This document shows positions 14,042 to 42,200 of a stretch of 64,000 nt of DNA, one piece after another. The notes under the pieces are model-generated. The model was given only the letters and a program-made list of their open reading frames with translations, had not been told where the DNA came from and did not search any database. This DNA is from Balanoglossus misakiensis (lineage: Eukaryota; Animalia; Hemichordata): the NCBI GenBank assembly GCA_040954595.2, contig CM082593.2:3675434-3739433 (forward strand), given 5' to 3'. The first letter of the stretch is position 1; each line of letters starts with the position of its first letter. The translations under genes and the position numbers were made by a program.

Positions 14042-15175
14042 ATGGATAACGTAACGGCAGCTATGGTGGGGAATGGTACGGAGGGGGTTGGACTGAGCAC
14101 GGACCAAGGACTGACCGACTTGGAGATGTACATGAGATGGCGGGCCTGGTTCATCTCCGCCATCGCCAAAATGCACACGCCGCCGCTAGCGACGACGACT
14201 ATCAGCGTAGCGTTCATGTTCCTGATCATCGCCGGCAACGTGTGGGTCATCGCTGCCGTCGTTCGCCAGCCCAAGCTCCGGAACTCGGCCACGAACGTGT
14301 TCATCGTGTCCATGTCCATCTCGGACCTCATCATCGGCGTGGCGTTCATCCCGATCCACGTGGCCGACTTCGCGTACGGCCGCAAGATGAGCGACCCGGC
14401 GCTCTGCTTCGTGACGTCTTTCCTGCACAGCTGCGCCATGTGCGGCACCACGGCGTCGCTGATATGCATCGGCGTCGACCGCTACCGAGCCATCGTCCAC
14501 CCGCTGACGCCCAAGTGGACGGCCGGACAGGCGGTCAGGCGGAGCGCCGCTGCCTGGTTCGCCTGCGCCGTGTACTCAGTCCAGGTGTACGCGAACTCCG
14601 GTATCAAGACTACCAAGGCTATATTTGGCAACGAGACGGTGATTATCTCCGAAGAATGCAGCGTAATTCGGAAGGACATTGACAAGTGGATGCGAGTTGA
14701 ATACTTCTGCATGTTATACGCCATACCGTTAATCATACTGTTCGTCCTGTACGGCATCATGATAAAAACGCTGTGGTTCGGACGATTTCCTTCCAACAAC
14801 CACAACCGCAACAAGAAGAAGTCGGTGAAAATGTTAAGCTTCGTGGTTCTCCAGTTCGCGCTAACGTGGGGACCCCTGTACTCCTTGCAACTGTATTACA
14901 CACACGAAACCAACCCCCCGTACGATGCCTTGCTATTTTCCAACACCCCGGCCAACATCACAATAATGATATCCTTCTGCAACAGCTGCATCAACCCCGT
15001 CCTCTATGCTTACTACAACAAGAATTTCCGCAAGGAATTCACCAGGATGTTCCCTTGCCTCTACAAACAGTCTCTGGCCGTGACAGGCTCCACCAGGACG
15101 AGTTCGATGGGAATTCAAGGAACACACGTGTCTACCGTGAGCACTTCAACGTTACTCGACGTCGGACGGGTTTGA
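14042..15175 (+). CDS. Class A (rhodopsin-type) GPCR, neuropeptide-receptor-like (RFamide/QRFP/NPY-type group), 377 aa, single coding exon
   Basis: Seven hydrophobic segments with TM1 GN, TM2 SISD, TM3 C...DRY, TM4 W, an ECL2 Cys, TM5 YAIP, TM6 FALTWGP, TM7 NSCINPVLY and helix 8 NFRKEF. N-glycosylation sequons NVT and NGT at the N-terminus. Splice acceptor ttttctttcag ends at 14026, so the real start is the ATG at 14042, not the TTG at 13982 given by the ORF track. The ligand subfamily cannot be determined by eye. Confidence 0.95.
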   Translation: MDNVTAAMVGNGTEGVGLSTDQGLTDLEMYMRWRAWFISAIAKMHTPPLATTTISVAFMFLIIAGNVWVIAAVVRQPKLRNSATNVFIVSMSISDLIIGVAFIPIHVADFAYGRKMSDPALCFVTSFLHSCAMCGTTASLICIGVDRYRAIVHPLTPKWTAGQAVRRSAAAWFACAVYSVQVYANSGIKTTKAIFGNETVIISEECSVIRKDIDKWMRVEYFCMLYAIPLIILFVLYGIMIKTLWFGRFPSNNHNRNKKKSVKMLSFVVLQFALTWGPLYSLQLYYTHETNPPYDALLFSNTPANITIMISFCNSCINPVLYAYYNKNFRKEFTRMFPCLYKQSLAVTGSTRTSSMGIQGTHVSTVSTSTLLDVGRV

Positions 15176-18400: not shown

Positions 18401-21234
18401 TTACATTTGCTGAATCTGTAACAAAACAGAAAATTGCGGACAAATTAGGTGAAGTGAAAATATGATGGAAAACAAAGCCTGTCTCAGTGTAGGCAATCAA
18501 TTTGCAAGATCAAAAAAAGACAAGATCGATTTGCAGAGAAATTTCCTAAACATTTCTACGATTTTCTGGAGATTCCTTTCACCTCTCCATCAAATTTGAC
18601 ACCACCGGGTGTTGTGACATCCACACTGACATTTGCGCGGTGCGGTGGAGTCGGCTGTCTTTGCGGAGTGGATGACGTCGATGGCTGCTGCTCGTCGGCT
18701 TGGTACGAATAGTTGTAGTGGTAGTTGTCATTGTCCGGTGTCGGGTCAGCGGGTCCAGTCTTCTTCTCCGGGATGAGATCGCCGTACGCGGCATTGTCGA
18801 ACGTCACTCCCGATTTGTAGTCGGGTGGCGGCTCGGACGGGTAACCAGGGGCTCTTTGCTTCTTCAAATATCTGAGGTCAAAAATGAGAAAATATCGTTT
18901 TGAGAGTATTCAAAATTGAAGTCTTCTCCTACAAAACAAATCTTCATGAGTTTGGTAAAAACAAAAACGTTGCCTCATAATCACATGGTTGCGCTCCAAT
19001 CACGCCTATCAATCCATGAAGTCATTCACGTAATGCGAAGCCATCTCGTCTGTTGAAACCACGTACCTGAGACTGAGCATGTAGATTATAGTGATAAGTA
19101 CAATCACTGCACCCAGAACGCCACCAACAATGGCTGCAATATCTCTCTTCTGTGAAGTACTGAGTCCATCTGCAAGAAATGTAACAGATAATAACCCAGT
19201 TATGTGGATGTTTCAGAAATAAATTTAGCGGCGAAAGCATACAACTTTGTATTGGAGACATTATTTAGCTTGAAATGCGACAAAGATGTCACTTACTGTA
19301 GGCATATTTGTGTGTCTGGCATCGCTGGCCAATGTAATACCCAATGCAAGTACAATTGCGGTTTCCAAACTGATCCATCATACAGATTCCATCATTGTAA
19401 CAGTAATTATCACATGCTCCTGAAAATACAACATTTTTCACACGTTATGTATAAGGAATGATTTTTTGTAATACAAAGATATGTTTGGCTGAGCTTTGTC
19501 CAAACTGGACATATTAGGGTGACGTTCTCCATGTCATTTTGAATGCTGGGTTCAGGGGACTTACAGTATACATTCACAGAAAGTGGGAGGGTTTACTTAC
19601 TCTCTGAAATCTGGCACATATCACCAGAGTATCCCTCGCTACATTCACAAACTGGGTAGCCCTTATTGTTGAGGGTACACACGCCCTCATTCTTGCAATA
19701 GTCAATGCACAGGTCTGCCAAAAGAAAAATATTACTAATATTAGCAACACATCAACGATAATGTGTTATTGAACAGTTTTTTTTTCAATAGAATACACAA
19801 TTTGTTTGGTCTTGCACTGACCTACATGTACATGATTATAAAATCTGCAGTACAAACTTACCTGAATTGCATGAAGGTGAATCAGCTTCGCATCCTGTAG
19901 AGATAAAAAATGATGCAAATTAGCAGCCATATTGGGAGAAAACACTGTGAGTTTTCATTCTGTTACAAAAGAAACTGTAACAGCAGACTTAAGTTATTTT
20001 TAAGAAGAAATATGAACTATGTGTTTGCATACTATGAGCACAAGTATAATTATAGGTTCCCACGCAAAAAAAGAACAGAAAAAGATAGTTACCAATGCAC
20101 TGAGAAGATGCAACTGATCCCTCTGTCAGTGTGGTTGTCATGGCAGGACATCTCTTGCAGTACGTCTGACCAATCACAGACTGGTATTCACCCAGTGGAC
20201 ATGGCTCACACGTACCGCTGGCCACATCTTTGTAACTGCCGATGTTACACTCGACTGTCATCAAAACACAGAAGGCAAAAATTAGGAGGAAACAGATTTA
20301 AGATGCAAGAGAAACGAAATCTGCATAAATCAAACATGGCTGACTGACCGATCGTGGGATTTGACACCCTGCACTAAGGCAAACTGCAATCATACATCTT
20401 CTGACAAAAACTAAGGGCGACCTGCAGTCGTTAAACTTACCAACATTGCAATCTGACTCGGAAACAGCTCCTGTGATGGAAGTAGTGAAACCAAACGGAC
20501 AGTTTCTGCACGATGTCTCCTCAGCGAGACCGTAGGTACCGACTGGACAGGGTGTGCAGTCTCCGCTAATGCCAAGCTGTTTGCCGGCATCCATACATAC
20601 AACTGCAACAATGACAAAAAGCGGATTAGACCATATAAAAGCGTTTGAAAGTGATTAGCACATTGAGGCTTGGTGTTCTGCACTGCACTGGTCATAATAA
20701 ATTACTACAACTACAACCTCATCTTGTTATACGAGTCCATGAACTTACAATTGCAATCAGTGACTGATGTAGAGGCTGTGTTTGCGGTGGACATGAAAGA
20801 TGGACACGCCTTGCATGAGAATTTTCCGCCTTCGTCTTGATAAAAGCCGAGAGCACATGGCTCGCATCGACCATCTTGGTTGTAATATCCCAACTCACAG
20901 CTCACTATTGTAAAATAGAAAAAAAAGGCATTTTAAGTTTGATTATTGTAGGTTGTAGGAAATGGAATGGGAAGCAACCAAAACAAAAATAAAACAAGTT
21001 TGTCAACTTACTAAGTGAGAATACTTTCCAGACAAAAGAAGTAGTGAAATTTCTAACCATTGAAGGACTCACCTACACACATACTGTAAGAGGTGGAACC
21101 AACACCTTCTGTCGTCTTTTGAGAACCACATGACTGACATGTGACCTGGGCTTCCTTATCCTGGTACTCTCCTTTGGGACACTTCTTGCATTTGTCTTCT
21201 GTTGTGTTGTGGTACTCTCCCAGTGGGCAGTTGA
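18401..21234 (-). CDS. Paralog A GCC repeats x4, 33-nt microexon, EGF x2, transmembrane helix and cytoplasmic tail
   Basis: [26 protein letters not shown] followed by RYLKKQR (exon 19067-19169). Tail exon 18583-18871. Last exon IQQM* after acceptor tttgttacag. Read-through to a stop at 18556 is an alternative ending. Confidence 0.88.
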
Positions 21235-24200
21235 CTATTTGGAGGCAAAGAATAAAGAATCACATTATATGAACAAGACAAGATGGCCGCAAGGGTATAT
21301 TCTAACATTGCACACCCTGTAGTAATCACCCTGCACAAACTGACTTTCTGTTAAAGAATATGCCCAACACTTACTGCAAGTGACATCATTGAGAATTTTG
21401 CCGTCCGGGCACGAAATGGTGGTGAAGCTCTCAATGGATTGTGGGTCAGCTGTAAAGCCGTCCGTATTGAACTCGCCGTCAAAGGCCGCATCCTCTAAGA
21501 CCTCGTCAACTGACCGTCCGTCCTCAGTTGGATTCGGGCTGTTGATAATAAACGAATAAAGAAAATATCTGACTGAGCCATGCCACATAAAAATTGGTAA
21601 TGTTAGGATTACCCACAATGCTGTGCAACCCAAGTCCACCAAAGTCTACCAACGACGACCGATGAGGAAACATAGATACTTACTTGGTGCCAAAAGAAAA
21701 GTCAAGAGCGGCCGTGGTGGCAGTGTCGTCTTGGCGTTTGCGTCTTAACGTCCCGTCTGGTAGACTCTCGTCGCAGACAACCTGAGTACTGGAGAAGTCG
21801 CAAGCGTCAGAGCCGCAGATTCCAAACAGCGAATTCAGGTATTCCAATTTCTCGATAAATGCCGCCTTCAACAAACTGTTGGGTTCCCTCTCACCGTTGG
21901 GGTCGTCGGGGTCGCACTCTGCGACCGAGAACTCCATGCTACCTTCCGTGTGGCAGTCGGCTGGATCACTGCCTAATCATCACAGAGAAAAAACAGAAAG
22001 AGAAATTAGTGAAGCTTGATAAAAAGTATCATAATGCCTTGATGGGAAAGGATTAAAGACTGAAAGAAGTTTAATATACAATATACGCACTCATCATCTG
22101 GTGTGATTTTTATCCCATACCTGCACATCCGGGGAAAACGAAGGGTTCATCCGGAGCCTCCGGATCCCACACTCCCTCGCTTCCGCATGCGTAGTAAGGA
22201 GCTGGCAGCACAGTGAACACTTTGCCGACGTTGCATCCGATGGTACAATAGAGACCGTACTCCCATGTGTCGCACGTCTTGCTGCCCTCTATAGGTGGAG
22301 ATGGATCGGGGCAATCGATGGCTGAGGAAACAAAACAGAAGACAGAATGTGAATAGCGGCCTCTACATGTATGCTAATATTCAAAACAACACTTTCTTCC
22401 TGATTGAATACTTGATACAAAGGGTGTCATAATGCTGAGGGTGTCGGTATACTCACGAGTGATGTAAAGCCTAAAGCTGCAAGCAGCCGTATTGTTGTTG
22501 GCATCGTACGCCACACAAGTCACAGAGTAGACTCCCCAGGCCACTGTTGCGCCATTTTCGATGGTACACGAAACGTCGACGACGCCCACATTGTCCTCGT
22601 AATCTAATTCACCGTAGTCAACCACTGTCAGCCGACTGTCGGGGTTCACGATGCGCACATCAGCAGGACATGTGATGGTTGGTGGCTCCTTGTCTGTGAA
22701 AATCGGGCGGAAAAATATTGAAGTTCATGTTTGGTTGCCATATTGGATATTGCATTATGGGTAAATCATAAACCTACGTGTGATGTCAGAAGTCAGGAAA
22801 TACCAAAAATAACCACATCAGATTGATCACAAAATTTATGAATTAGAATTCACATACCCCCACATGGACAACCTTTGTAGAAACTCTCATCTGGGCACTG
22901 GTGTCCGCCACAGATGGACGGTCTGATGACATGTGTGCAGCCGACGCGGTAATACTGACAGTATATCCATTCCACAATGTCTCCTTGCTCGTCACGGACG
23001 CGACAACCCCGCGAGTAAATATCGCTGATTTCGCTGGCATCGAACACCCTGCTGTGCATGTTGAATTGGCTGATTTCGCCGTGGAACGCCAGGCTGTCGT
23101 CGCTCGACTCGTAGGGGCGTCCGAGCATAATCTTCAACCTGTTTGAGACCAAAAGTGCCCATTATTTTGACAACAGTCAGAGCGACACTGTACATTAACA
23201 ACTTCAGTGATGATTATAAACAAATAAACTTGTTTGTATCTGCCTTGATCTCTCAGCGGTGTTTTATTGAGCCCATAGGGCAGAAATTTACTGCCAATCC
23301 TGAAATGTCCACAGCTCGAAGCTTACCAATCTGATGTTGTTTCTCCAGTCCTGACATTGTCCCTGCTGATTGCGGCCTCTCCATCGATGTACCAGGTCAA
23401 CGATCCTGACTCTGAGTCCCAGGTCAGAGCCAAGTGGTGCCACATCCTGTCCTGAATGTCGTCAAATGGTTCGCCGGATGGTAACTCATGGGCCACTGTG
23501 AAATCAGTGCTGGGGAAGGGAAAAATTCACAAAATGTACCGTCAATGTACAAATGTGTGAAATGTATATGAATTTGATGAATCAGTCTCCACATTTAGTT
23601 CGTGCTACGAGACATCTTTACACTTTCACTGATCTGTTATGACTTGTTCACCAATCAAATTTAATTTCTGACTTATAACAACAGAACTGTATTACTTTCA
23701 CGATGCAACATGCGTGGTGATTGGTTATAAAGCAAGACTTACAACTCTTGGGTGTCCGACTCGATGACCTGGAATGGAGTACCGCCGCTGTCTTCACAGG
23801 CGTATCGGATCCAAAACATGAAAGTGTATGCGGAGGCACTGAAAGTCTGGGCTGGTGATTGGGCGTAGGACGAGTCTTCAGCACAGAAGTACAAGTCGAA
23901 GTTCGGACGCTTCTCTGAAATGATACACAAAAGGGCAACAGAAGACCAATCAGAACTGGGGCAATAGTATGCACCTGCCAGCCCTGGTGTACTAATTGGG
24001 CTCTTTTACGAATACACTCTCTCAAGCTAGTAGAACATTTGGCTATGTACACAAAGTGTAGATTGGGTGTTTTTTCTCTAGATAACCAATAGCAATCATC
24101 ACCTCTAAAATTTGCGTTGTACAAATTTTACGAAGATGAAGTTGCATTTTTAGTTTCTGACAGGGATTTCACAGTTGGTGATACTCTCTGAAAAAAACGA

Positions 24201-27200
24201 GACGAGTACGACTTACTCTTGCTGCATGTCGGACCCGAGTACACGGGCGTGCATCTACATCGGAAGCCATCAACCTTGTCAATGCACGTGCCGCCATTCT
24301 CGCACGGGTCACTCTCGCACTCATTAATGTCTTCCTCGCAGTGTTCGCCGTCATAACCGTCCGCGCACTCGCATTCGTAACTGCCGTACGTATTGTGACA
24401 CGTGGCTGCATTTTCACATGGGTAGTCATTGCACTCATTGACATCTTCATCGCATGTCGGTCCAGTGAAACCTGTGAACAAAGTATTTCACCGAAATCAG
24501 CATATAATTTGACCCTAAATTTCCCCTCTAAATCGACCCTTAAGTATTTCCATCTGTGGGTGGTTCATTTAGATCACTGCCTACATTTTATCAAATTGTG
24601 ATATTTCTTCCAATATTGCCATTATGTTGGATCATTTTAATGTGTTGAAAGTAGATATAAATAAATTAGATTTTACTTACCGAGTGCACATTCACATATA
24701 AATGAGTTGTGTCCATCAGTACAGGTTGCGCCATTCTTGCAGGGATCATTTTCACAATCATCAATGTCCTCCTCACAGTATGGACCAGTCCAACCTGGGG
24801 CGCAACTGCCAACAAAAACATATCAGGAGTTAAGTTAAGAGGGAAAAGAGATTTGGATTTGATTTGAATCAACTATGGGTCTCAGCAAAGGAGGTGTGTT
24901 CCAGTTGATAAAGTATAATTACGAAAATTGTCATATACTTGTAAATCGGGACTTACTTGCATTCGTATCCATCAACAATAGTACTGCAGGTGCCGTCATT
25001 TTGGCATGGGTCCGATGAACAATAATCTTCTAAGTTTTCGCAGTCAGTTCCACTGAATCCCTCCTGACAATCACACTCGTAGCCATTGACCAAGTCAATG
25101 CAGGTGCCATTGTTCTGACATGGCTCAGACACACAGTCATCCATGTCAATCTGAATAAAAAACCCTCAGTAATTTAATTAAATCTGAATGTAATAATTCC
25201 AACATAAATGTACTTGAAAGTAGCCGAAATGTTGTCCAGTTTGAATTCAATTGACAATTTTGTACTTGTCAATCCAGAATAAACCGAAAAATGTGAGAAA
25301 ATTACAAATAATATAATATTTGAGATGAAACTTCGGTTCAGAAGTGGTCGGTTACTGACCTCACAGAAGTATCCGGTGTAGCCGTCTGGACAGGTGCACA
25401 TGAATTTCTTGCAGGAACATGGACCTGGGGGAGCTGGCAGTGCTGTGCATACACCACCATTCTTGCATTCATTGGGATCACATGGGTCATCGTCTTCTAG
25501 TTCACAATGGTCACCTAGAAACAAAACAGAAAGTTATGTTAGTACTAGCATAGATTGAAAGTGTCATGTGAATACAATGTAGATGAGTGTTGTCACATAT
25601 ACATGTACACACTGAAGATGCCAGTGGGTTGTGTGTGTGTGTAATGTGGTCTGTGTGTCTTTTGTGTTACATCATACCTGTATATCCATCTTCACAGATG
25701 CACTCATAACTGTTGTCGCCATCTCTGCAAGTGCCACCATTTTGGCACACCACGTCCTTGCAGTCGTCATCGTCAATCTGGCAGTGTCGGCCGCTGTAGC
25801 CCGTCGGACAGCCGCAGGTGTACCTATTGTTGCCGTCGATGCATGTGCCACCATTCTCACATGGATCTGGGTCACAGTCATCTGTAGAGGAATATTCAAC
25901 AAGTGGGGTGAACAAATATGAATGATCATCAAAAAATATTTTGGCCGCCGTAGTATAGAATAATGATGTCATAGTTCTTGCGTGATTCTCGTCTAAAATC
26001 CTGGTAAAGTGACAACTTCATGACCTTACCTATGGGAGTTTCACAGTATTTTCCAGTGTAATCTGGTTGACAATAGCAATCCACATCGTTGATCCCGTCC
26101 ACGCAAACTCCGCCATTCTCACACGGGTCACTCTCGCAGTCGTCGATCTTCTCCTCGCAGCGGTCGCCACGGTAATCAGGCGGGCACTCGCAAATGTAGC
26201 CATCTTCATGGTCGTCCGCCACCACGCATGTGCCGTTGTTCAGGCAGGGGTCCCTGTTGCAGGGGTCGTGGACTATCTCACACTGGTCGCCGCAGTAGTC
26301 GGGCGGGCAGATACAATAGTAGGACTCGTCCGTGTCAACGCAGGTGCCCCCGTGCAGACAAGGATCACTGGAGCAGCTGTAGCTCTTCTCACACCGCACA
26401 CTGTTACAGGCATTAAAAATATAGCGTCAGCGACACTGTAGCTCCCATAAAACATTCACATAGCACAAATGTCTCACTTAAACCACCGAAACCAATGTAT
26501 GGCTGAAGAATCCGAATACTTACCCATAGTACTGTGGTGGACATTCACAGATGAATGTGTGAGGACAGGATCCAGAATGACAGGTGCCTCCATTCAAACA
26601 AGGCTCAAAATAGCAGGCATCTGAAACGTCAAAAGTTCAGTATTTGTGATTATGTAATTTTTACAGTGACTTAACATTTTTAACGCAGCCACTAGCATCA
26701 ACATGAACTACAGTTGAGAAGGAATCGACCAAACATTTGAACACTGACCGACGCAATCATCTGCACTAGTGGATCCTTTTCCAAGTGTCGTCTTATTGTC
26801 TTCACATGGCTTGCATCGTCGCTTGCCCTGTTCGTCTTGATAGAAGCCATGCTCACACGGACGGCATGGCTGCAGTCCGGTCCTGGAGTGGTAGCCCGGT
26901 GGACAGTAAGCTGTAGAAGTGACCAATTCGCATTGACACATCAGTCATGTGATGTAACGGTCATGTGGCCAATATGAGACAGATTTCAGTGACCACGTCA
27001 TAGAATAACAAGGAAAACTTACCACTACAGTCATTGGAACCTGGATGACTGAACAGCCCATCCTCACAGGGCTGACAAGCCATGTTTCCATATCCTGCCG
27101 CGAAATAATTGGCCGAGCAGATGTCACATGGTAGCATTCCATCCAGAGAGTAGTATCCATGGCGACAAAGAGCTGAGCAGAGAATACAAAAAAAATCTCA

Positions 27201-30200
27201 GATAAACTTGTTCAGAAACTGTCTTAATCTGAACAAACTTTCTTTATAATAAATTGTATCCAAACTGCATCGTGATGGTGATGGAACTTACGAATGCATC
27301 TGTCGTGGTGTTTAGTTCCCTCATGCCTTGTGGAGTGGTGTTCCGGACATGACTTGCACGACCTCTTGCCAGCTTCATCTTGATAGTAACCAACGGGACA
27401 GCTGACACACTCGCCGTCCTTTTCATACGTTCCACGAGTACACTTCACTAAAATAACGTCAAAACAAACAAATCAGTTTTTAACATATTACCCAATGTAG
27501 GCACCACCAAAAATTGTATTAAAGTGGAGCTTAATTAAAGGAAAATACAGTATTCTCCAATGGGTAAATACCAATGGAGAGTGACTGAAAACAACACTCA
27601 CAGCAAGCGCAGTCCTTCATGGTGTATCCCCGTGGACAGTGACAGCCACTCTCTATCAGCTTGAATTCCGTCTCCTGGGTGACGTCGGGACAGTACTCCC
27701 ACAGATTGGATTCCTCGGCAACGACGAGATCCTTGTTCTGCCAGTCTCCTACTTTCTCGGCTACACTGTCTCTGCACTCCCTCAGCTCGGTGCAGTCCAG
27801 CTGAGTTCTGTCACCAGTGACCACCAACGTGAAACGGATGTTGACGGTATACTATAAAGAAAAACATAAGGTACATGCATACCAATTTTCAAATCTATCT
27901 GACCTTTAGTTGTTGAGTTTCTTAATGTTGACCAATTTCACAAGTGTTCGATGTCGACGGACATACAGACCTGCTCTTTGTTAGTTTTTAACTTGGTTTA
28001 TACTGAAGTACTGTACATGTAAATGTAACACAATTTTTCATTGGGTGGTAACTCTTTCTGATACTGACTCAAAAGCAACACACATTTTCATTGGCTACTC
28101 ACTCTATCTTTGAGGTCAGGGCAAATACACGCTGGTTCATCACATTCTTCAGAGTTGCGCGAGCCCCGGCCCCTCCTTTTGGAGTTTCCACTGCATTCAT
28201 TGCTCTTCGTAGACTTCTTTTTCTCTCCACTCTCAACATCACAGTAACATTCGCATTCCTCACTGCTTGCTCTGGAGTTCCTGCTCGCTCTGGAATTTCT
28301 CCCGCGGCTGGTCGCGTAAAACCCGCATACCCGTCCGCTGTTGTTCTCTTGGCTTGAACGGCGGCTTGACTTACGGTCAGCTGATGCTGAAGATCGGGAA
28401 CCACTTTCCCGCTCCCGGCATTTGGGGCGTTCATCTTCTCCTGAACAACTTCTTCCTCTGCCGTTATTCCCGGACGCCCTGCTGTTACGGTTTGAATTGC
28501 CATTGCCGTTGTTGGAACATTCATTTGAACGGCTGTTAGTGTTACTACTACGGCTGCCAGTGCGGCTTCCAGTGTCATCTTCGTTACTGCTACTTCTTGT
28601 GTCGCTGTCATCGTCTTCTGAACACCTGCTTCCTCTGCCGTTATTCCCGGACGCCCTGCTGTTACGGTTTGAATTGCCTCTGCCACTGTTGGAGCATTCA
28701 TTTGAACGGCTGTTACTACTACGGCTGCCAGTGCGGCTTCCGGTGTCACTGCTACTTCTTGTGTCGCTGTCGTCTTCCTCTGAACAACTTCTTCCCCTGC
28801 CGTTATTCCCGGACGCCCTGCTGTTACGGTTTGAATTACCTCTGCCATTATTTCCAGAAGCCCTGCTGTTTCGATGTGAATTGCTACCTCTGCTGTTGGA
28901 ACAGCCACTTCTGCTACCGCTGCTGCTACTGCGCCCTCCGCAATCGCACCGTCTTCCGGATTCCCGACTGCTGCTTCCTCCGCTGCTACTTTCCGTATCC
29001 CGACTCTCGGTGCTGCTCCTGGTTCCTGAACAGTCGCAGTCATTGCTTCCAGTTCTTGTGTTCCTTCCACTTCTTTCCTCCCCACTTTCTGAACAGTCGC
29101 AGTCGTCTCTGGATGCCGTGTTTTCCCGACTACCAGTGCTTTCCCGACTTTTTCCTCTTTCCTGGCTTGCCCGACTATTTCTGCTATTTCTGCTATTGCG
29201 ACTATTCCTGCTATTGCGACTATTCCTGCTATTCCGACTATTTCTGCTATTCCGACTATTCCTGCTATCCCGACTCCCCGTGCTTTCCCGACTTCCCGTG
29301 CTTTCCCGACTTCCTGAACTCTCCCGGCTCTCTGTACTCCCACTTTCTGGCACCGTTGGCTAAATATAACAAGAAAACACAGAAATTCACAGAATTCAAA
29401 TCATGCACCATTTACAATTTCATTTCTCACACTGTACATTGTATGAGGCGTACTTGGTGTACACATCTCACCATGCCCATATAAGTTGATATTTTGAACA
29501 TTAAAATCTATATTTATACCTCTTCTATTTTGACAACTTCCACAACAACACGAAGGTCGACATTCTCTTTAATGTCATCACTACAGTCTTCTAGCAAATC
29601 TGCCTCGTCGATGACCCTCTGTATCAGTTCGTTGTACACTGCCATGCAGTCCTCTCCAATTTCACAATCGGCAGAGTAGTTGGCAGACACTACGACTCCA
29701 CAGTCTGGGACCTCATACGCTGAAGCGAAGGGTAACAGAACAAGTTTCATCAGGTTGAAAGGATAATTGAAAGACAGAACTCTCAATATATTGAAAACAA
29801 AGGATGATAAAGTCTTTGGTAAAGTTTAATACAATTAAGCATATTTCGATCGACAAAATTATTTATGTGAACGTACGTGCACATCCAGGCACTCGGTTGT
29901 TAGGCAGCCATCCATTGACATCAGAGCAGACATAACTGTTTGATCCTGGGATCAGCTCCGGCAATGGCTGCACAAAACCATAGCCTTCCTGGCAGCCCAC
30001 ATTGCAGGAGAAGCCACCTCCAATTGGAGCGGCACAGGTGATGTCTCCATGTGGGGGCAGCATCAATGACCATTCTGGGCAGCCCTTCACTGAAATTACA
30101 GAAGTAATAACTTCAACTCATCTGTATTAGACTTTCTGATTGGTTATTGAGCCGTGTCATGTCAGCAAGGTGGAGTTTAAATCTAATTGGCCGAGTGACA

Positions 30201-33200
30201 TTCAACTGATAATAAAAGCAAAATTTATGATAAGAGAGGTACATTTTTTCAATTACAAGTTTGCGTTTAGATTAATAGTGAAGGCTGAGAGTATTCAATG
30301 CAGCTTCTGAAGCCATCAAATTGTCAGGTGCCTGTTCAAGGCGTGGCCTGGTCAAATACAAGACAGTAGCTGAGTTTTGACTTACGAACAACGATGAGAC
30401 CGAACCAGCATTCACCGACGTTTCCTGCTTCATCATAGGCGGCCACCCGGACTGAAATATACTGGAAAGTCCAGAGGACCAGTGTCTCTTGTATGTACTC
30501 AACACGGACCACTCCGACGTTATCAGTAGCCGTCACTGAATCCAAATAAGTCTGCAAAGTGACATTGACTGATTGCTCTTCTGTCTCTATGACGACCACC
30601 GCTGGACATTCGATCTCTGGAGGTTCAACATCTGTTGGAGAAGTAGCTTTCTGTGATTATCATGTATTATCCTTCTGTCTGCTGTCTGTCTCCGTTTACA
30701 AGCCAATTCAGGTTTCCATCACTTAACGAATGTTTAACTTGAAATCCAAATCTATTTCTAACAGAAGTGAATGAAAAAGAAACAAAACATCTATTCAGAA
30801 AGACAAATTCTTACCAACACATGTAGGGACCTCTCCACTCCAGTACGGTTGCGGAACGACCACATCTTCAATCGTGATGTCTTTCAGGCAGTCAAAGGAT
30901 GCCAGTGTGATGCCCAGAGATACGTAAATGGTACTGCTAGGATCAATTACTATAGTGATTTCTGTCGGGATGGTGCCATTCGCAATGGAGGTGACAAGGG
31001 CAGTATAGCTGTGGCCTGCTGCCAGGTAGAAGGACAGCCAGCTGGGAACGTCTGCATCGAAACATGCTGTGACCTCTTCCCATGCATCAGGCGTCACGCC
31101 CATGGGGATGTCGACGCGCACGCCTTGCCTGATGGAGTAGTCGTACTGGATGTAATGCACCTGGATGGAGTTCAGGCGATCTTGTACCTCGCCGGTCATC
31201 TCCAGGCCGAGCATGTACAGAATCCGGCAAATGCAGAAGTCCACGTCTCGAATCTGCACCTCCAGATGCTTGAGGTCAGCAGGACCGCTGACCAATGCGA
31301 GGAACTCGGTCATCAGGGCACCGTCCAGGGCGTCGACGATGTCAGCGTACAGGGCTGGAAAGTCGATGGCGTCGATGAAAGTCACCCTGATCTCCCGCAC
31401 GCAGTCGTTGACGACGAGGCCGTAGGATTCTACGACCTGAACGAGACCTTGGCTGCCGTATTTGAGGGTGTACGCAAACCGGTGCAGGTCTTCGGGTCCC
31501 GAGTAGAAAGCTGAGATTCCGGCTAAGATCGCGTCATCAAAGCAGGTCCTGATGTTCATGTCCAGAGCTACAAAGTCGATGTGCCACTCAGGTTTGAATG
31601 GAAGGTAAAGGATGCCGTCTCCAATGTCGGGGCCACTGCCTTCATCCCCACCATCGTTGTCGCCATTGTCGTATTTGACGTACGTCACTTCGATTAAAGT
31701 CAGGCAATCCAGTACGTCAGTCGGCACAGTTACAGTTACGCCCAGCAAGGATGGAATTTGGCAGACGCAGAAGTCTTCTGTCCTAATGTACGATTCATAC
31801 GGCTTGAGATCGGCAGGACTGGTGACATAACCATCGAACGCTACCAGAAGTGTGGTATCTAGGCAACCTCTGACGCCGTCATACAAAGCTGTGTAGTCGA
31901 TCTCGTCAATGTACGTCACGGTGATCTCCCGGACACAGTCATTGACGCCTAGGCCGAACGACTGCAAGATCTGAATCACAGCCTGGCTTCCTTGTCGGAG
32001 AGTGTCGGCGAAACGGTGGAGGTCGTCGGGTCCGGAGTAGAGGAAACTAATACCAGCCAACTGCCATCCATCATAGCAGTACCTTATGTCCATGTCCAGG
32101 GCTACGAAGTCAATACGCCACTCAATCTCTGTACCGCCGTCACCAGTGCCGGGATCACCATCTCCGGGGTCCGGATCACCACCACCTTCTCCGGGGTCCG
32201 GATCTCCACCACCGCCATTGTCACCACCGCCATTGTCACCACCGTGATGTTCCTCGTATGTGGTGTACGTGACTTGGACACCATCCAGACAGGTATTCAC
32301 GTCACCTGGCAGTGCTACGTTATAACCGAGCAGGGTCGGAAGCTGGCAGATGCAGAAGTCTTCCTGTCTGAAGTTACTTTCATACTGCACCAGATCAGCA
32401 GGGCCCGAGATGGCACTATTAAACAAGGTCGACAATGTGCTATCCAGGCATCCTTTGATGTCGTCGTACAACACCACGTAGTTGACCTCATCGACATATG
32501 TGATTGTGATCTGTTGCACGCACTCATTGGTACTTAAGCCAAACGCTTGCAGTAACTGAATAATGGTCTGGCTCCCGCTTTTGAGCGCGTCGCCGAAAGG
32601 TTGCAGGTCTTCAGGTCCAGAGTATACAGCTGAAATGGTCCCCAAGGTGAGACTATCATAGCAGTTCCTGATTGCCAAATCCAGAGATACAAAATCAATG
32701 CGCCACTCGATTTCAATACCACCATCACCACCACCATCACCTCCGCCACCTCCAGTTGAATATTCAATACCATCCAGACAAGCTTCAATTTCTGTGCTGA
32801 ACTGATCTGCGGAATCGGCGATCAAAACTGCCAAGAATCCCTCTGCGTCCATTGTGCCCTCTGTGAATTGGTTCAAAGAGTCTGCATATACAGAAGGAAT
32901 TGTGAAAGTACTCCCCTCAGGGTAGCCCTGACACACGTTGATAGCATTCAGTAGAGCCACTTTTTCAGGTGGAAGAGTGATCGCTTCGTCCGCCATTATA
33001 CCTTCGACGTCTATCGCGCCAACGCAAGCCTGCTCCTCCTCGGTCAAGGCGTCAAGAGCATCATTCGCTAAAGCATCGACAAACGCCCTTACTTCGTTGA
33101 CGTCACCATTTGGGTTACTTATAATGACGTTGTATTCAGCGTCGTACCCGAATGGAAATGAAGACGGAAATGTTACAGTGCCATCTGTTATATCTCCTCC

Positions 33201-36200
33201 CCAACATACCGACACTTCAGCAAGTACCTCAAAGACTTTTGGTGGTACTGTGTGAGCCTGCCTTCTCAATCGCTTGAGACCACCGGTGGAATGGATGCTG
33301 GTCACAGATCGTCTATTCCGAGCTGGATATTCTGTGTTGTGAAAATGACCAAAAAAAAAAAAAGATCATGACCATCGCAATCAACAAAAAGTAAGCATAT
33401 CCACAGAAATCGGTTATCCAGCGACAGACAAACTATAGTGACCAACTGTCAGGCACTCACCGCGTTCGACAGGCATCACATGATAGCCATCCACAGTGCA
33501 CATGATAGACTGGTGGGGTTTGGGGCCGTAGCCTTCTTGGTCACACAAGAAGTGCAGTTGGTTGCCGACATAGTACTTCCCAAACATGCTGTACTGCTGG
33601 CCGTCATCTGGGCTGCCTGGATCTTCACATGTTAACACTGCATGGGGAGCATGAAAAAAATAGTTGATGATTGATTTCTATTGGAAGCGCCATTTTTCTA
33701 CTTACGTTTCCCTTTTTCATAAAACTGGCGTTAGTTTTGATAATCTTATGTATGTAGTATAAGTTGGAAAAATGTTGACTGCGGAGGTTATTTAGAAGAG
33801 GTCAACTTACATTTACAGTAAGGCACTGAGTCACTCCATGAACCATCTTGTTGACAAACTCTCTCTGACAAGCCAATCAGCTCATAGCCAGGATTGCACT
33901 TACAGATGACGCGGTCACCCACACGCATGTCTTCGTAGTAACATTTGGCATGCTCAGGGAGTGATGGGTGGCCACAGGGAATTCCTGAAAATAATATCAA
34001 TGATTATGATTTATGAATCGACGTCGGAAACACACATACATGTACCCCCTCCGGTACACACAAACCAAAATTAAGTGTCGAAGAAAGAGAGTAAGTAGTC
34101 TATGTTCTTACGTTTGCATTCTGGTACAGGACCAGTCCAGCCGTAGCTATGGTAGTCGAGTCTTTGACACACAGACACTGCAGGGCCGTACAAAAGATAC
34201 CCATCGTCGCAGCTGTAACTCACACTACTGAGGTAGCCATAGTTACCGGTACCAGGGTCCGTAGCCACCCAACTTCCATGTTCAATATTCGGTGGGTCGG
34301 TGCATGTTGCCACTGAAGAAAAAATCACAAAAGTTGAAACACATTAATTTACGACCTAGACAGTTTTTTTATTTTATTATTCAATCTCAAAGCATACACT
34401 CAGTTTTTACTTAGACACTGTCTTGACAGGAGCATAGACACTTTCACTGTTACCTTCTATGCTTGGAATTTCAAAGTCAAAAGTTCCGTTGGCTGTGCAT
34501 GTCAGTTTGTATTCGCCAGAGACACTGTAGCTGGTCTGAGTGACGATCTCGAAGAAGAAGTTGTACGGAATGCGCACTGACGATTCTCTGTACTGGCACC
34601 CACAGCCCGGGGCGTAAACGGCAATGCCGAAATTGAAGGTTACGTCCAGGCTGCACATCACAGCTGTAGACAGGGAAGAAAAACACTGACATGAGACCAA
34701 TTGTGCCATAATATATATGGTGCTGCATTAGCTACAATATTTGAAGAACTTTACAGGCAAATTTTTGGAACGCAATTTTTGATGGCCATATGGTGAATTT
34801 CCTCATTTGACGTTACTTACGAACACAGGTTCTGTGCAAAACATAGAGACTGCGGGCATCAGAGCCATCCTCCCCATCAGGCAGAAGGAATCCATTGACG
34901 CCATCCGCATCAAAGAGAGTGTATCCATCATAACAACTGCACACGTAGGAACCATCTCTGTTTTCGCATTCCTGGTTGCACAGGTTCAAGCTGTCGTCGG
35001 AACACTCATCAATATCTATCAGGATGGAAAATATGAATATTTAAAATAATTGTTGATGACAGGTACATTTATTAAATTAATAAATTCATTTTCAGCACGG
35101 TCTTGAGCGGACACTCACCAATGCAAGTGACGGGATCTCCCTCGGGGTGGTGATAACCATCAGGGCAGCTGCAGTCAAAAGTTCCTGGTAGATTGGTGCA
35201 TACTTGCGTTGAATCACAAGGTGCGTTTTCAGTGCACTCGTCAATATCTGGAAAGTGTCAACAAAAAGCCAATACTCATGAGACTTCATATCATATGCAT
35301 AGGCTTTATCACTTAAACATTCTATAGATATCTATAGAATTGTGCAGTCTATTCTATTCATGAGACTTCATATGCATAGGCTTTATCCCTTAAAACATTC
35401 TATAGATATCTTCATCTGCAATCATATGATAGATATTACTGGTACATAATCCACCTCAAGCTTGTGAAATACATGTATATCCTTACCAACACAAGATGTC
35501 AATTCGTTATCCCAGCTGATAGGGCCTGAACAGGTTGACGTGGTAACAGAATCGGATGGCAGTCTGAATCCATCCTTGCAATGAAGGGTCACTGTATCAC
35601 CAACTTGGTAGTCATCTTCGGGGTCCAGATAAGAACTCACTGAATCAAAGAGAGGCTCGATACAGTACGGGCCTGTACAGAGAAATAATAATAAAAATAA
35701 TAATAAAGAATAATTGTAAAGAGCCTAATCATACATGTATGTTAACTGTAAGGCATGGAATAATAAACTTCAGATAAAAACAAAACTATTTCCTTGTGAT
35801 TTTATCTCATTTTTCTAAAAAAATGATAATATCTGAACACTCACTTGAACACCTTGGCGGATCATTGGACCAAGTTCCATCACGTCGACAGAGCGCGATA
35901 CTCCAACCGAGAACAGATTTACCATCATTGCAGCCGTACACAACAACACTGCCAAAAACTGTTGAACCAACTTCTACAATGAAGCCTCCCTCTGGAGCAA
36001 CCGGCTGAGGGCATCCGACAGCTGTAAGAAGAAAACACAGTCAGTGAAACTGACACTTTTGAAGCACGGACTGAAACCGATGGAATGACACACTTTTGTC
36101 CCTCACGTACCTGAGCATTCCTGAATTGGGCCCCATGTGCCGTCGGCTTGACAGGAGATGGTAACTTGTCCAAGATCTGCTCCGTATCCATCAACACATT

Positions 36201-39200
36201 CATACACGGCTAGATCTTCAAACAGGTGAGTGCTTATGCTGACAATATAGCCATGGAGAATGGGTGCAGGTCGACCGCAAGAAATTCCTGTCAGGAAGAG
36301 GCATAGAAATTCTGCATTTGGCCCTTTGAATACCTTATTTTTTGCTATCAAAATGTGCTGCAACATTTTTTTTCATTTTCAGAAAATTTTCCTCATTTTC
36401 CCATTAATTCTTGACCAAGCGGAAAATTTGCTGTTGTCTGCAGGTCTTGATAAAAAAAAAATGTAAAGCTTTGATATCAATTTGGTGAGAAATGACAAGT
36501 TGATGTTCTGTATAAGAATATGAGATGGTCCAAGGCATTTTAGAATCAAGGCATTCCAAACATGACATTACAGTGAACTAGACTAAAAGTATGCAAAATA
36601 CTGGCACATACTGCGGCATCTTGGTGGTCGGGTGTTGCCATGGAAATCCCAATGTCCGCAGAAGTCACAGGTGACACTGTCGTAATCTGGATCGTCTAGT
36701 ACAAAGCCTGGTGCACAACTGAATTGGACTGTGACTCCATAGGCTGTATTGGTTGTGTCAATGACAGTGCCCTCTTCCAAGTCAAGAGCTGGGCAATCTG
36801 TTGATAATGACAGGAGAAAATACACAGAGGATGATATAGAACACTTGGGCAGATCGATCAATTAATCAATTAACAAGCATTGAGAAATATTCCTCACCTC
36901 GTGAGTATCTAGCTTTGAAACCGTCTCCTTGCTTGTTGTTATTGCTGTAAAACTTGACGAAAAGATGACCCTCTGCGGACCTGACAGTCGCTGGTTTAAT
37001 GTCACCGTCTGCACCTCCAGTGTGTTGATCGATCAGAACCTCATCATCTTCTTCAACGTTATTGTAAACCTGAAATATTTGGATAAAGTCAAAAATGGAC
37101 ACTGAAGCAGCAGAGGAAATTGGTAATTATTGTTCTTTACTTGCCGGACACACGAATACCGGTACACCAAGTTTGTAACTTACACTAATGTAGTCATTCT
37201 CCTTCCTCTCCTCCAGCTGGAAGTCGTCGAAGGACAGCGTCATTCCGGACTCATCCGGATCTGTGATGATCCAGGTGCACAACAGCCGGTTTCTGTATTG
37301 GTTGATGGGATAACCAGGTGAGGTGATGAAGCCGCATTTCTGCTCCAGCTCGATACCCCTGCAGCCTGCGGAACATGACGAAAAATGTGGAATTTGCAAT
37401 CAGAAATGAAGATGATTTGTGGTGAGAAAGATTCTTAAAGCCCCATGAGCTGCCACTTTTTGCATTTCTGTATTCATCATCCATTACTGTCTGAAATTAA
37501 CCCAAATTGTCATGTCAGTCACATTTTTTTCAGAAATAAGGAGAGAATGTGTAAAAGAACACTTTTCCTTAAAATTTAACTTTTACCTGATTTGAAGGAG
37601 AACAAAAACCCTTCGTCGTTCTCGGTAGCATCCGAATGGAATCGTACGGCCATGTGCCTCTTGGAAGAAATGAATGGCCCTGGTAAGTAGTCGTTCCATC
37701 GGTTTCCAGACAGTTCAGCGATGATGTTCACGTGGGTGGAGGCTGAATTTCCATCATGGAGATTCACGTAGTCGTTGATGGGTTCGGTCGCAAAGACATC
37801 ATGGAACTGTGATCAGAATGGATAGGTATTGTAAAATTTCACATAAGTTGATATTAGAGCAATAGTCATGTGTGGGATTTCTACTGCTGGGATTTGATAA
37901 TGGGAGTTTTTATGTTGTCATTGTTGTTACAAAAGCTACAAGTTATATGGCAGGTGGGATTTGAAAACATGGTGACTAGAATCTGTATCATATTATAATT
38001 ATGATAATGAAATTCCAAAGTAAAAAGTCTTCATGCAAATAATGCGATGGATTTTAACAATTTGTACAAAAAAGCAAAACACACACAAAGGTGCCAAAAC
38101 TGGGGCTTTAAATCGCATGGAGGTGTAGCTACTGGGGCTTTAAATTGTCACTGACCTGCAGAGTGACCACGGTGTCATCAAAGCACACATCAGGGTCACC
38201 GTTACGGGGGCTGTCGTCATCGCAGTGCGAAGGTCGGTCAAACTTCAAATGCCAGACGCAGTCCTCCTCGTGGGGGTAGTGTTCGTAATCCATGAATCCT
38301 TGGCTGTAGAATTCCTGGGGCTCCAAGGAAGTCAGGAAGGTTCCACCACACTGGGCTTGAACTGCAACAAAAATGATCAGAATAGATGAAGCCAAAGTAA
38401 GTTAATTCTTGTCTTGAAGTGACACCAAGTGTTTGCTATTCCTTTATCAAACATGTTCCACAGCATTCTATTGATTTTGTCATTGATATATAATTCAATA
38501 GACTTAGGGTTCAAAACTATACATCTATGTACATAGAAATCCATAGAAGTTCTACAAACTTCCATAGAAATTTTGTAGACTATGGAATTTTCATCAAATA
38601 TCTACTCCAATTACATAATTAGGGAAGGCATGATGTGATGTCATTAAAATTGCTTGATAACAGAACCCTATTGACTTACGTGTGTGCCATTCAATTTTGA
38701 ATCCGTTGTACAGTCCGTCAGTGCTACCATCCGTTTCAAACGTCACAATGACCAGGTGATTGAAAGAAGTGAATACATGTTCTTCATCGCTCCAACCTGA
38801 CGCCTCTGTAAGCACCATGTCGTCCAGAGTTCCACCATTGTATATTGTCACCCAGTCATAATTCAACTCCAAATCCAAGTCCGTTAGCTGGAAAAAAAAA
38901 TCATTGTCAGAACTAGGAAAAAACAGTTGGATCGTAAGTTTGTAGTCTGTGTTTCAAATAAACTGACAGACAACTGCATTGGTTATCTTGGTGTTGCATA
39001 ACGTAGTGACTCATGTTTGTGAAACTCATACATTGTGTATTTTCAATCAAAATTGGCTAAAATTGACCGATGAACCAGAGTCATTGAGTCAGGGTTGGTT
39101 AAGTCTGTATAACAAAATTGTCACAAATATCGTCTTGAAACTTTTGGGAGCGAAGACAATATTCCGTCACTTACCTCCAACACAACTCTGGATCCCACTG

Positions 39201-42200
39201 GTGCCTTGATGTACCACTCACAGAACGCATTATCCGGATAACCTCCTTCAAATCCAGGACTTGTGATAACTCCAGACGTGCCCTCTTGAATTCCACCACA
39301 TGCTTCTGCAAATTTTGAGATTTTAACAGAACAAGTTCAAAGTGGGATGTTTGTTTTTTCTAAAACTATAGAAATTACCATCATGACAATTATACTGTTA
39401 CGAAAATTAATGATATTACTATGTATACCAATGGGTTTGGACTGAACCATGGTGGAGAAAGGTTTGAGAAGCAATGACTTTTTGGGGGACTGTTCTCACC
39501 TGAGCATCCTAACTCATCGGATCCATCGGAACAATCTCTGTCTCCATCACAGATGAAAGACGATGGAACACACTCGGCACCATTACCGCAACGGTAATAG
39601 CCTGAAAGAAAACCAATGACATGTTATACTTTGTTTCTGTTGATCGAAACTATATATTGCACAAGTCTGCACGACCGACAAAACTGCATGGGTTATATGT
39701 TTGTAACCACCGACCTGAGAGACATGATGGTATCTCGCAGATGAAGGACCTGGGGTCATCGCAGTTCCCAAAGTACCAGTCGGGGTTGATGGACAACGAG
39801 AGGTAGGCACAGTCTCCCAAGATGTCGTTGAATGCAGACGACGCCCACTGCCCTTCCATAATGTTGGCCTCCATGCCGTTTGCGTACACGAAACTGCCAT
39901 CATTCCCTTTGAAACCTGGGAGAAAAAGATATAAAATGGAATTGTCAATGGGATATGTAATATTGAAAAAAAGCTACATGTTCCCTTTTTTGAGTTCAAC
40001 CTTCTAAATTCAACCCTACCATTCAATTCATGCACCCATACTCATCCAAGAACAAAGTGAAAAGTTGAACATTATGTCTATTGATGTAAACAGTGAACAA
40101 TCTGCACAAACCAACAAAAATACCAGGATTTGAGGTCTGTGAGGGTCATAAGAGTGGCCCAATAATTTTTTTTTTAAATTGTTGAAACACAGAACTACAG
40201 ATAAAATAATATGCTACTCACCAATCCAAAGTGAGGAGTCTCCCAGAGTCACAACAGTGGCAGCGTACACAGCTATTTCAAGATTTGCAGCAAAACTGTC
40301 TATATTTGCCAAGTATCCTCCATAGCTGTCATTTAATGCAAGAAAAAAAGAAAAATATAAAGTTTATTCAATAAATTGTGATAGCTACTCAAAAAAAATT
40401 GTGAAAATTTTACCAAACGTTACATATATGTAGCTCTAACCAATTACCTTGCACACGTCACGTTGGCTGCATGCCAAGATGAAGTAAAGGAAAAATATTT
40501 CACACACTTGCTGCCTACAAGAACCCAACCTGCAGAAACAGAACATATCAACAGTTATGTCTGATATACTAGGTCTAATATGACAATTCAAAACAAAACA
40601 AACCAGAGTATGGAATATGAATATGTTAAAACAGGTATAAATAATGTGCCACAAAAAGTTCATACGTGTACTTTTCAATGTCTGTGGGTCCAAGCCATTT
40701 CTGAACATTTTTTAATTTATCATGACTTACCATCAGGGCAAGTAAGGGTTATTGTTGTTGACACGGTGAGCTCAGAGTAACCAAACGACACAGAGAACTG
40801 TAGATACAAAAGCAAACAAGAAGAGAGACATAAGTCAGATAAAATGTATGTAACTTCATAATACAGGCAGTAAAACGGCGCAGCCAAGCTCTGCCACGTG
40901 TAGTTAGCTCCCTGGCTGGGTACCCCCCCCCCCCCCCCCGACCACGCCCCCTTTCTCTATGCGTGTCCTCTCAGGCCGGGGCTGTGGATCTGGAGCAACT
41001 CTTGACGACTTAGAGAGACCACAGACCCCAGGGCAATATTTCGGTAAGTCTCACCAACCTGGTTAACCAAGCATCCGTAGCATTTTCAACCGAGACCTTC
41101 ATGGGTTTAATAAACCACGGTTACGCTGGGCGCCGCCATTTTGAAATTCCCGCAGTGAAATGAATTATGGGAGGTAAATAACCACTGTCGCTTAGATACG
41201 CCGGAGCCATGACAACCATATCCTCGTGCCAGAACTGGGTTTCGTTTTAAAATACAGCAAAACAAATCGGTGCCGTTTGGCTATTTTTATTACAACATCA
41301 TTCTTCTCAACCACAATATCGCTCACACACACAAACCGTAACCGTGAGAGCATAGTAGTGACGGATTAGTGAACGAAAAAGGGCGTTGTTGCATTAAGGC
41401 CCAGAACTGGATTAATCCGCAGAAACATCGCCTGTGACCAGGTGAATGATTCAGTTTGCAAAAGACCTTGGCAAAAGACTAATTTCGACCATGAAAACAC
41501 GACAGCATCAACTCTGTTGATTTTGACCTTTGTAAATTTGCACGTATTTACAACTCAAGTTCAGGATTGGAGCGGCCACACCCTGTCAAGGTTATGGGTG
41601 GTCCTTTTGAATTTTTCCCAGGGATCTGAACGATTGAGACAAAGCGGATTTTCATCCAGCTTCCCCGCCAATTATTTTATACCTAGTGAAAATTGATGTA
41701 TTTTGTTGGCGCCGCTTTTTTCTTGTAATAACGAGTAAAATTTGTTTGAATGAATAAAACAAAACTTTTTACCATCATGATGTATGCAAGATCATGAACA
41801 AGAAATCAGTCGAGACGATAATTTATATTTTAAGTGTGTCTGAGTGGCCCCCTCCTCCGCCTTCGGTCGCTGAACCCATACGGCGTTTCGCAGCAAAGTT
41901 AACCCTTAGCAACACGTACGCATACGTATATTCCCTATGGGCTCTCGAACCAGTTCATAAACATGGGCGTATCCGACTTGCACGACAAAAAAGTGCCCAT
42001 TGTTGATTTATCCGTTGTTTGTCCTTCAAGTCGCATACGACCTAGACTGTGTTCAAGTGGTCAAGCTTTTGTATTCAAGTTTTCTTTGGCCATGAGCTAG
42101 TGCGGGACTTGACATTGGAACGCTTTCAGTCTTAAAAGAGGTGAACTTTTGTCAATGTTTCGAAGAAAACGTGAACCGGTGTTGTGATCAAACATTAAGT

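What the first reader, a model, noticed from the sequence alone, without database searches (positions are those of the whole stretch)
33261..33320. Twin furin-type sites with an identical 12-residue spacer conserved in both paralogs
Seen: A has [21 protein letters not shown] (33320-33261). B has RRRR-DSSRNPSLDVQN-RRRR|E (61119-61060). Both spans are exactly 60 nt, and the spacer sequences are unrelated. The ORF track misses both: the A ORF starts after the first site, and the B exon is shown in the wrong frame. Established: R-x-(K/R)-R is the furin consensus. Inference: cleavage excises a short peptide and cuts the protein inside sushi 8. The N-terminal CTL-CUB-sushi head would then be held only by the C2-C4 disulfide, making it redox-releasable, and the insert in A would get a free N-terminus (Gln, a possible pyroglutamate).
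Basis: partly seen in the sequence, partly recalled or inferred. Interest (0 to 1): 0.8.

Follow-up and report, generated by a model that had tools for sequence, protein, structure and literature searches.

The report
Furin-cut branch point inside sushi domain
Two neighbouring, likely acorn-worm, cell-surface receptor genes each carry a pair of furin-type cut motifs in a loop in the middle of a sushi domain; a similar pair sits in the same loop in other acorn worms, oysters and mussels, and cutting there would likely leave the receptor in two linked chains, in one copy with a free 800-residue side arm that matches no known family.

Summary
Both R-x-K/R-R pairs are in frame, 60 nt each, between Cys-III and the Trp/Cys-IV strand of sushi 8 in two tandem uninflatable-like receptors, most likely of an acorn worm. 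The pair is conserved in 5 of 6 acorn-worm genes whose loop I could see (3 of 4 outside the window) and in 5 bivalve species; Saccoglossus B has lost it. The 12-residue spacing is not a rule (12, 12, 12, 12, 15; bivalves 8, 8, 26, 26, 27), and the spacer sequence drifts. The same loop is a family insertion site: 8-10 residues in Hydra and many molluscs, a discoidin (FA58C) domain in arthropods, 700-2,250 residues in bivalves, and 800 residues of unmatched helical repeats in A. Best reading: convertase maturation into two chains that likely stay joined by the split sushi strand plus Cys-II-Cys-IV, like the insulin-receptor insert. Any insert becomes a free side arm. Cleavage is untested. 'Held only by a disulfide, redox-released' has no support. 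New variant of a known kind.

The parts
18560..40859 (-). Gene A: uninflatable-like type I membrane protein (signal-like start, CTL, LDLa, 3 CUB, 8 sushi with 2 EGF, HYR, sushi, unnamed domain, GCC2/GCC3 repeats, EGF array, pentraxin/LamG, HYR, sushi, unnamed domain, GCC repeats, EGF, TM); ends approximate
   Evidence: Pfam on orthologues
49397..64000 (-). Gene B: tandem paralogue, 5' part runs off the window
   Evidence: tree
33461..33637 (-). A sushi 8 first exon: Cys-I (33629), Cys-II (33545), Cys-III (33500)
33309..33320 (-). A site 1, RNRR, P1' Ser
33273..33308 (-). A 12-residue spacer (6 of 12 identical to Ptychodera A)
33261..33272 (-). A site 2, RLRR preceded by Lys, P1' Gln
30850..33260 (-). 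A insert of about 800 residues in one exon; six ~71-residue, mostly two-Cys repeats (31140-32717) with Gly-rich linkers; 40% identical to the Ptychodera A insert (eight repeats); a two-unit block is predicted helical with short strands
30815..30849 (-). A sushi 8 last strand: Trp (30842) and Cys-IV (30821)
30386..30631 (-). A first HYR exon
61481..61642 (-). B sushi 8 first exon: Cys-I (61634), Cys-II (61550), Cys-III (61505)
61260..61277 (-). Candidate 18-nt in-frame microexon in the B loop (unconfirmed)
61108..61119 (-). B site 1, RRRR, P1' Asp
61072..61107 (-). B 12-residue spacer (5 of 12 identical to the 15-residue Ptychodera B spacer, 2 of 12 to Glandiceps B)
61060..61071 (-). B site 2, RRRR, P1' Glu
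61014..61059 (-). B sushi 8 last strand: Trp (61041) and Cys-IV (61020); no insert
60570..60818 (-). B first HYR exon
21734..21745 (-). A third furin-type motif (RRKR, P1' Gln) in the unnamed membrane-proximal domain
53695..53706 (-). B third furin-type motif (RRKR, P1' Ser) at the same place

Best explanation
The two motifs sit in the Cys-III to Trp loop of sushi 8 and are likely proprotein-convertase (furin-type) sites that would cut the precursor in the secretory route, dropping a short linker and leaving the head (CTL-LDLa-CUB-sushi) likely still joined to the rest by the module's own last strand and the predicted Cys-II-Cys-IV disulfide. Shown: motifs, position, frame, conservation pattern, family-wide use of this loop for insertions. 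Inferred: cleavage itself, the disulfide pattern, continued association. The likely effect is constitutive maturation that opens the loop. In B it leaves two short tails. In A it turns an 800-residue loop insert into a free arm with a new Gln N-terminus, so the ectodomain would be Y-shaped. In bivalves the insert lies before the sites and would hang from the head chain instead. The second site most likely makes the cut robust and trims the linker; the spacer is most likely disposable.
For: The pair is at the same alignment position in Ptychodera A and B and Glandiceps B, and in 5 bivalve species. Single motifs lie upstream of the same Trp in Bulinus and Lingula. Only 3 motif places exist per whole protein in the window genes and in P0002-P0004; shuffles gave a close pair in 0-6 of 2,000. 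P4 and P1 Arg are invariant while spacers drift: 0-6 of 12 identical, against 33 of 46 (A) and 38 of 45 (B) for the flanking half-module between window and Ptychodera orthologues. Cys-III and Cys-IV are kept in all 19 aligned rows, with Trp in 16 and Phe/Tyr in the 3 arthropods. All 7 short-loop members (8-10 residues) and all 3 FA58C members lack the motif; every member with an insert over 600 residues has it. The CCP I-III/II-IV pattern with buried Trp comes from passages of PMC5655542. Precedent for a furin site in an insert loop of an interrupted domain with chains staying linked: insulin receptor, passages of PMC10573852.
Against: No cleavage, expression or splicing data were obtained. 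Saccoglossus B keeps a homologous 32-residue loop with both motifs gone, in two gene models of one gene, so the cut is dispensable in at least one lineage. B-type proteins keep twin sites with no insert to free, so branching cannot be the whole reason. Whether bivalve and acorn-worm sites share one origin is unresolved. In Bulinus and Lingula the first half of sushi 8 was not found in the models, so their placement rests on the Trp/Cys-IV/HYR tail. All homologues are predicted gene models.
Confidence: 0.65

Rival explanations
1. One reading: after the cut the head hangs on one disulfide and is released by extracellular reduction.
For: Cys-I to III lie before the sites and Cys-IV after, so on the canonical pattern one disulfide spans the cut.
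Against: The downstream chain also supplies the buried Trp strand. The Cys and Trp positions look the same in uncut family members. A third conserved motif near the membrane offers a simpler release route for the whole ectodomain. In the insulin receptor such chains stay linked.
Confidence: 0.08
2. The excised 12-mer is functional: an inhibitory latch, as in alpha-ENaC, or a small signal peptide, so two cuts are needed.
For: Two sites are kept rather than one in 5 acorn-worm genes and 5 bivalve species. The length is 12 in 4 of 5 acorn-worm pairs. The A spacer keeps 6 of 12 residues between species. Twin convertase cuts that free an inhibitory tract are known (passages of PMC9163703).
Against: Spacer sequence is unrelated between paralogues (0-2 of 12) and weak within B (2-5 of 12). 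Length ranges from 8 to 27. There is no shared motif. Bulinus and Lingula show a single site.
Confidence: 0.1
3. The sites are cut but this is near-neutral: a relic of an ancestral insert-bearing loop, kept by weak selection.
For: Loss in Saccoglossus B. B has no insert. Many family members work without any site.
Against: Both motifs persist across two paralogues that split before Saccoglossus and Ptychodera did, while the residues between them were replaced.
Confidence: 0.13
4. The basic clusters are not cut; they bind polyanions or are targets of another protease (for example matriptase type) at the cell surface.
For: No cleavage data. Matriptase can use the same motif (passage of PMC6784293).
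Against: Exact P4-Arg/P2-basic/P1-Arg spacing in all 20 twin-site motifs listed (4 in the window, 16), in proteins otherwise nearly free of the motif.
Confidence: 0.04

Closest known systems
Drosophila Uninflatable (Uif) and arthropod relatives
   Same: CTL, 3 CUB, 8 CCP, HYR, EGF array and single TM (passages of PMC3340373). Same domain order as mite and crab proteins. Sushi 8 is interrupted at the same loop.
   Different: Arthropods carry an FA58C domain there (mite residues 1273-1391) and no motif. A and B have no FA58C and 2 HYR rather than 3. They fall outside the arthropod-mollusc clade (94/99). A 'presumed cleavage site' in fly Uif is mentioned in PMC12867482 (section 7), but its figure was not visible and I could not place it.
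Insulin receptor insert domain
   Same: Furin site in a loop insert within an interrupted extracellular module; chains stay disulfide-linked (passages of PMC10573852).
   Different: FnIII rather than sushi; one site; short disordered insert rather than an 800-residue repeat arm; no homology.
Twin-site convertase substrates: RSV F, alpha-ENaC
   Same: Two convertase sites bracket a short segment (passages of PMC6784293, and PMC9163703).
   Different: There the double cut activates fusion or a channel. Here the spacer shows no conserved sequence or length, and no activity is known.
SVEP1/polydom
   Same: Shares the HYR-sushi-unnamed domain-GCC block; a furin site is mentioned (one passage of PMC13722417).
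   Different: Secreted and VWA-headed. In the SVEP1-like rows the motifs lie after the HYR-sushi block, resembling the third site here rather than the sushi-8 pair.

Membership tests
Furin/proprotein convertase substrate | Arg at P4 and P1, basic P2 | tested here: met
   P4/P1 motif from passage of PMC6784293; basic P2 preference recalled
Furin/proprotein convertase substrate | Lumenal position in a secretory-route protein | tested here: met
   hydrophobic N-terminus after ATG 40859 and one TM segment, by inspection; no signal predictor run
Furin/proprotein convertase substrate | Site in an exposed flexible loop | tested here: inconclusive
   loop varies from 8 to 2,259 residues across the family; no model of the interrupted module was obtained
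Furin/proprotein convertase substrate | Demonstrated cleavage or ProP/PiTou score | not testable with these tools
   no predictor or proteomics on hand
CCP/sushi module (PF00084) | [quoted passage not shown] | tested here: met
CCP/sushi module (PF00084) | Disulfides I-III and II-IV | not testable with these tools
   taken from passages of PMC5655542
Uninflatable (Uif) | CTL, LDLa, 3 CUB, 8 CCP, EGF array, LamG/pentraxin, single TM | tested here: met
   CTL seen by inspection and alignment to P0003, not hit by Pfam
Uninflatable (Uif) | Two FA58C domains | tested here: not met
   no FA58C in P0002-P0004 or in the A insert exon; present in mite
Uninflatable (Uif) | Three HYR domains | tested here: not met
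   two HYR in P0002-P0004 and in window A and B
Uninflatable (Uif) | Orthology with arthropod Uif | tested here: inconclusive
   same broad family (100/100), but base unresolved and outside the arthropod-mollusc clade
Uninflatable (Uif) | Apical localisation and Notch interaction | not testable with these tools
   known for fly only
Known folds, for the A insert repeat | Sequence or structure match to a described family | tested here: inconclusive
   Pfam none; PDB profile best E 0.57; Foldseek no E<=0.001; VIA-align best Z 4.1, rmsd 3.4, 59 aligned; Atlas no usable hit

The most novel reading that the evidence does not exclude
Sushi 8 of Uif-like receptors is an ancient 'branch socket': lineages plug different cargo into one loop (FA58C, bivalve mucin-like arrays, an undescribed helical repeat in acorn worms), and twin convertase cuts turn a linear receptor into a Y-shaped one whose split sushi is the branch point. 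The cut sites may go back to the protostome-deuterostome ancestor, and the A arm would be an undescribed extracellular repeat family.
Probability: 0.35. Interest if true: 0.65.

Novelty: new variant of a known kind. Interest (0 to 1): 0.45.

Why it matters
Furin cuts inside insert loops are known (insulin receptor), but my searches of the held library found no report of one inside a sushi module or in Uif-like proteins. If true, it shows a way to build a branched ectodomain from one gene, and how very large domains can be inserted into a 60-residue module without breaking it. It also predicts two or three chains for an unstudied receptor family in acorn worms and farmed bivalves, and points to an uncharacterised, confidently folding extracellular repeat. 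It does not bear on a major open question, and all processing is inferred.

Tried and rejected
No whole genome is held. No RNA holder was listed, so splicing is unchecked by reads; this is no evidence either way. A single-sequence AlphaFold model of the whole A exon was useless (pLDDT 33.8). No model of the two cut halves together was obtained, so strand complementation stays an inference. The insert repeat had no match in Pfam, PDB sequences, Foldseek PDB/BFVD, VIA-align or ESM Atlas; that does not show a new fold. I had recalled the two unnamed domains as SEA-like, but Pfam gave no SEA hit on the three window exons tested, so they are left unnamed. One clade for site-bearing proteins was neither found nor rejected (p-AU 0.47). 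Six of 29 rows were dropped for the careful tree (SVEP1like_49, Saccoglossus B, Mizuhopecten, M. galloprovincialis, C. virginica, Argonauta); the 29-row quick tree is. Saccoglossus A (P0005), P0006 and Mizuhopecten (P0028) are fragments without the loop, and no Glandiceps A was found, so they are not counted. The SVEP1-like and other HYR-rich rows (P0036/P0077, P0041, P0043, P0045, P0049, P0054, P0059) and the GCC-repeat-only hits were left out of loop counts as different architectures. I could not place the fly 'presumed cleavage site' (figure supplement not visible). Zhang and Ward 2009 is not held and may bear on Uif processing. PMC13178913 and PMC7444548 have 0 hits for 'cleav' or 'furin'. 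Earlier scan notes: nothing found. Rejected: chance or intronic motif; a fixed 12-residue ruler.

Full report
1. Observation. Exon models built from coordinates give symmetrical phase-1 exons. In A the acceptors at 33331 and 33322 both keep RNRR in frame, and the one at 33312 runs into stops. In B the sites are kept with or without an 18-nt candidate microexon. No reads were available. The motif is rare in these proteins. The covered coding of A and of B holds three each: the pair and one near the membrane. Shuffled homologues gave a close pair in 0-6 of 2,000 trials.

2. What the genes are. The window holds two tandem type I membrane proteins with the order CTL, LDLa, three CUB, eight sushi, HYR, sushi, unnamed domain, GCC repeats, EGF array, pentraxin, HYR, sushi, unnamed domain, GCC, EGF, TM; B's head is off the window. 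This resembles Drosophila Uninflatable (passages of PMC3340373) but lacks FA58C and one HYR. The nearest proteins are an adjacent pair in Ptychodera flava (74-75% identity over the tree columns), with Glandiceps and Saccoglossus next. The organism is therefore most likely an acorn worm. A and B form one clade (100/100) that duplicated before Saccoglossus split off.

3. Where the sites lie. The exon before the sites matches CD46 CCP2 through Cys-III. Trp and Cys-IV come after them: 6 residues after site 2 in B, about 800 in A. On the canonical I-III/II-IV pattern with a buried Trp (passages of PMC5655542), a cut leaves three Cys on the head chain and the Trp strand plus Cys-IV on the membrane-side chain.

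4. Conservation in acorn worms. Of 6 genes with a visible loop, 5 have the pair: window A (12), window B (12), Ptychodera A (12), Glandiceps B (12, counted from the end of a run of five Arg) and Ptychodera B (15). Saccoglossus B keeps a 32-residue loop with neither motif, in two models of one gene. Spacer identity is 6 of 12 between the A orthologues, 2-5 among B, and 0-2 between paralogues. The flanking half-module keeps 33 of 46 (A) and 38 of 45 (B) against Ptychodera. P1' of site 2 is Gln in 4 of 5 and Glu in one, including B-types with no insert. So the motifs are under selection and the spacer mostly is not; equal length is what shared descent with few indels gives.

5. The wider family. 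In a 19-row alignment the Cys-III to Trp loop is 8-10 residues with no motif in 7 rows (Hydra, Lottia, Babylonia, Ylistrum, Argonauta, Octopus and one unnamed). It is 162-163 residues with no motif in 3 arthropod rows, where Pfam places an FA58C domain in the mite protein tested. It is 690-2,259 residues ending in twin motifs in 4 bivalve rows. With M. californianus, five bivalve species have the pair, with spacers of 26, 26, 27, 8 and 8. Bulinus and Lingula have one motif before the same Trp, though the first half of the module was not found in their models. In bivalves the insert precedes the sites; in A it follows them. Whether bivalve and acorn-worm sites share one origin is open: the base of the tree is unresolved, and a single clade is not rejected (p-AU 0.47).

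6. The A insert. It holds six ~71-residue repeats, mostly with two Cys (eight repeats in Ptychodera). A two-unit block folds confidently as helices with short strands (pLDDT 83.8, three window rows). No family or fold match was found (best Z 4.1). Among the 7,992 longer candidates scored, only the Ptychodera protein matched; proteins of similar or shorter length were not searched with this query.

7. Mechanism. Most likely (0.65), convertases cut the loop during secretion, the linker is lost, and the two chains stay together through the split module's last strand and Cys-II-Cys-IV. The precedent is the insulin receptor, whose furin site lies in an insert loop of FnIII-2 (passages of PMC10573852). 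Any large insert then becomes a free arm, so A would be Y-shaped with a Gln-started arm. The motifs, their place and their conservation are shown; cleavage, bonds and shape are inferred. The facts against are the loss in Saccoglossus B and the pair's persistence in insert-less B. A redox switch (0.08) has no positive sign, and the conserved third motif near the membrane is a simpler release point. A functional peptide as in alpha-ENaC (passages of PMC9163703; 0.10) fits poorly with a spacer that varies from 8 to 27 residues. A near-neutral relic (0.13) and other proteases or no cut (0.04) remain.

8. What is known. Twin convertase sites (RSV F, passages of PMC6784293) and cuts inside interrupted domains are known kinds. 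Four searches of the held library (listings only, then term searches inside four Uif papers) found no furin cut inside a sushi module or in Uif-like proteins. A 'presumed cleavage site' in fly Uif is named in PMC12867482 (section 7 read; figure supplement not visible). The original Uif paper was not held.

9. Verdict. This is a real, conserved feature and a new variant of a known kind. The exact 12 spacing and the redox release are overstated. The more interesting part is the loop as a family-wide insertion site that is likely opened by cleavage. Interest 0.45.

Noticed in passing
window 30850-33260 (-): About 800-residue single-exon insert of ~71-residue two-Cys repeats; folds confidently in AlphaFold but matches no family or fold searched; shared only with Ptychodera A among the longer proteins scored.
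   Followed up: partly
window 28091-29359 (-): Second large insertion in A, Ser/Arg/Asn/Gly low-complexity with 9-, 18- and 162-nt tandem repeats; 23 R-x-x-R but no R-x-K/R-R; much shorter in Ptychodera A.
   Followed up: partly
window 21734-21745 and 53695-53706 (-): Third furin-type motif in an unnamed membrane-proximal domain; motifs at a like place occur in oysters, mussels, Lottia, Bulinus and Hydra but not in the mite, crab or cephalopod rows.
   Followed up: partly
window 61260-61277 (-): Candidate 18-nt in-frame microexon with strong splice signals just before B site 1; no counterpart in the Ptychodera or Glandiceps B models.
   Followed up: partly
P0011-P0016, P0079, P0081-P0086: Bivalve relatives carry 700 to over 2,000 residues in the same sushi loop, with Thr/Ser-rich stretches that differ between isoforms.
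   Followed up: partly
P0003 residues 1207-1221: The Ptychodera B spacer is 15 residues with two Cys and an internal dibasic, unlike the other spacers.
   Followed up: no
window 13943-15175 (+): Single-ORF rhodopsin-family GPCR (PF00001, E 1e-40) downstream of gene A.
   Followed up: no
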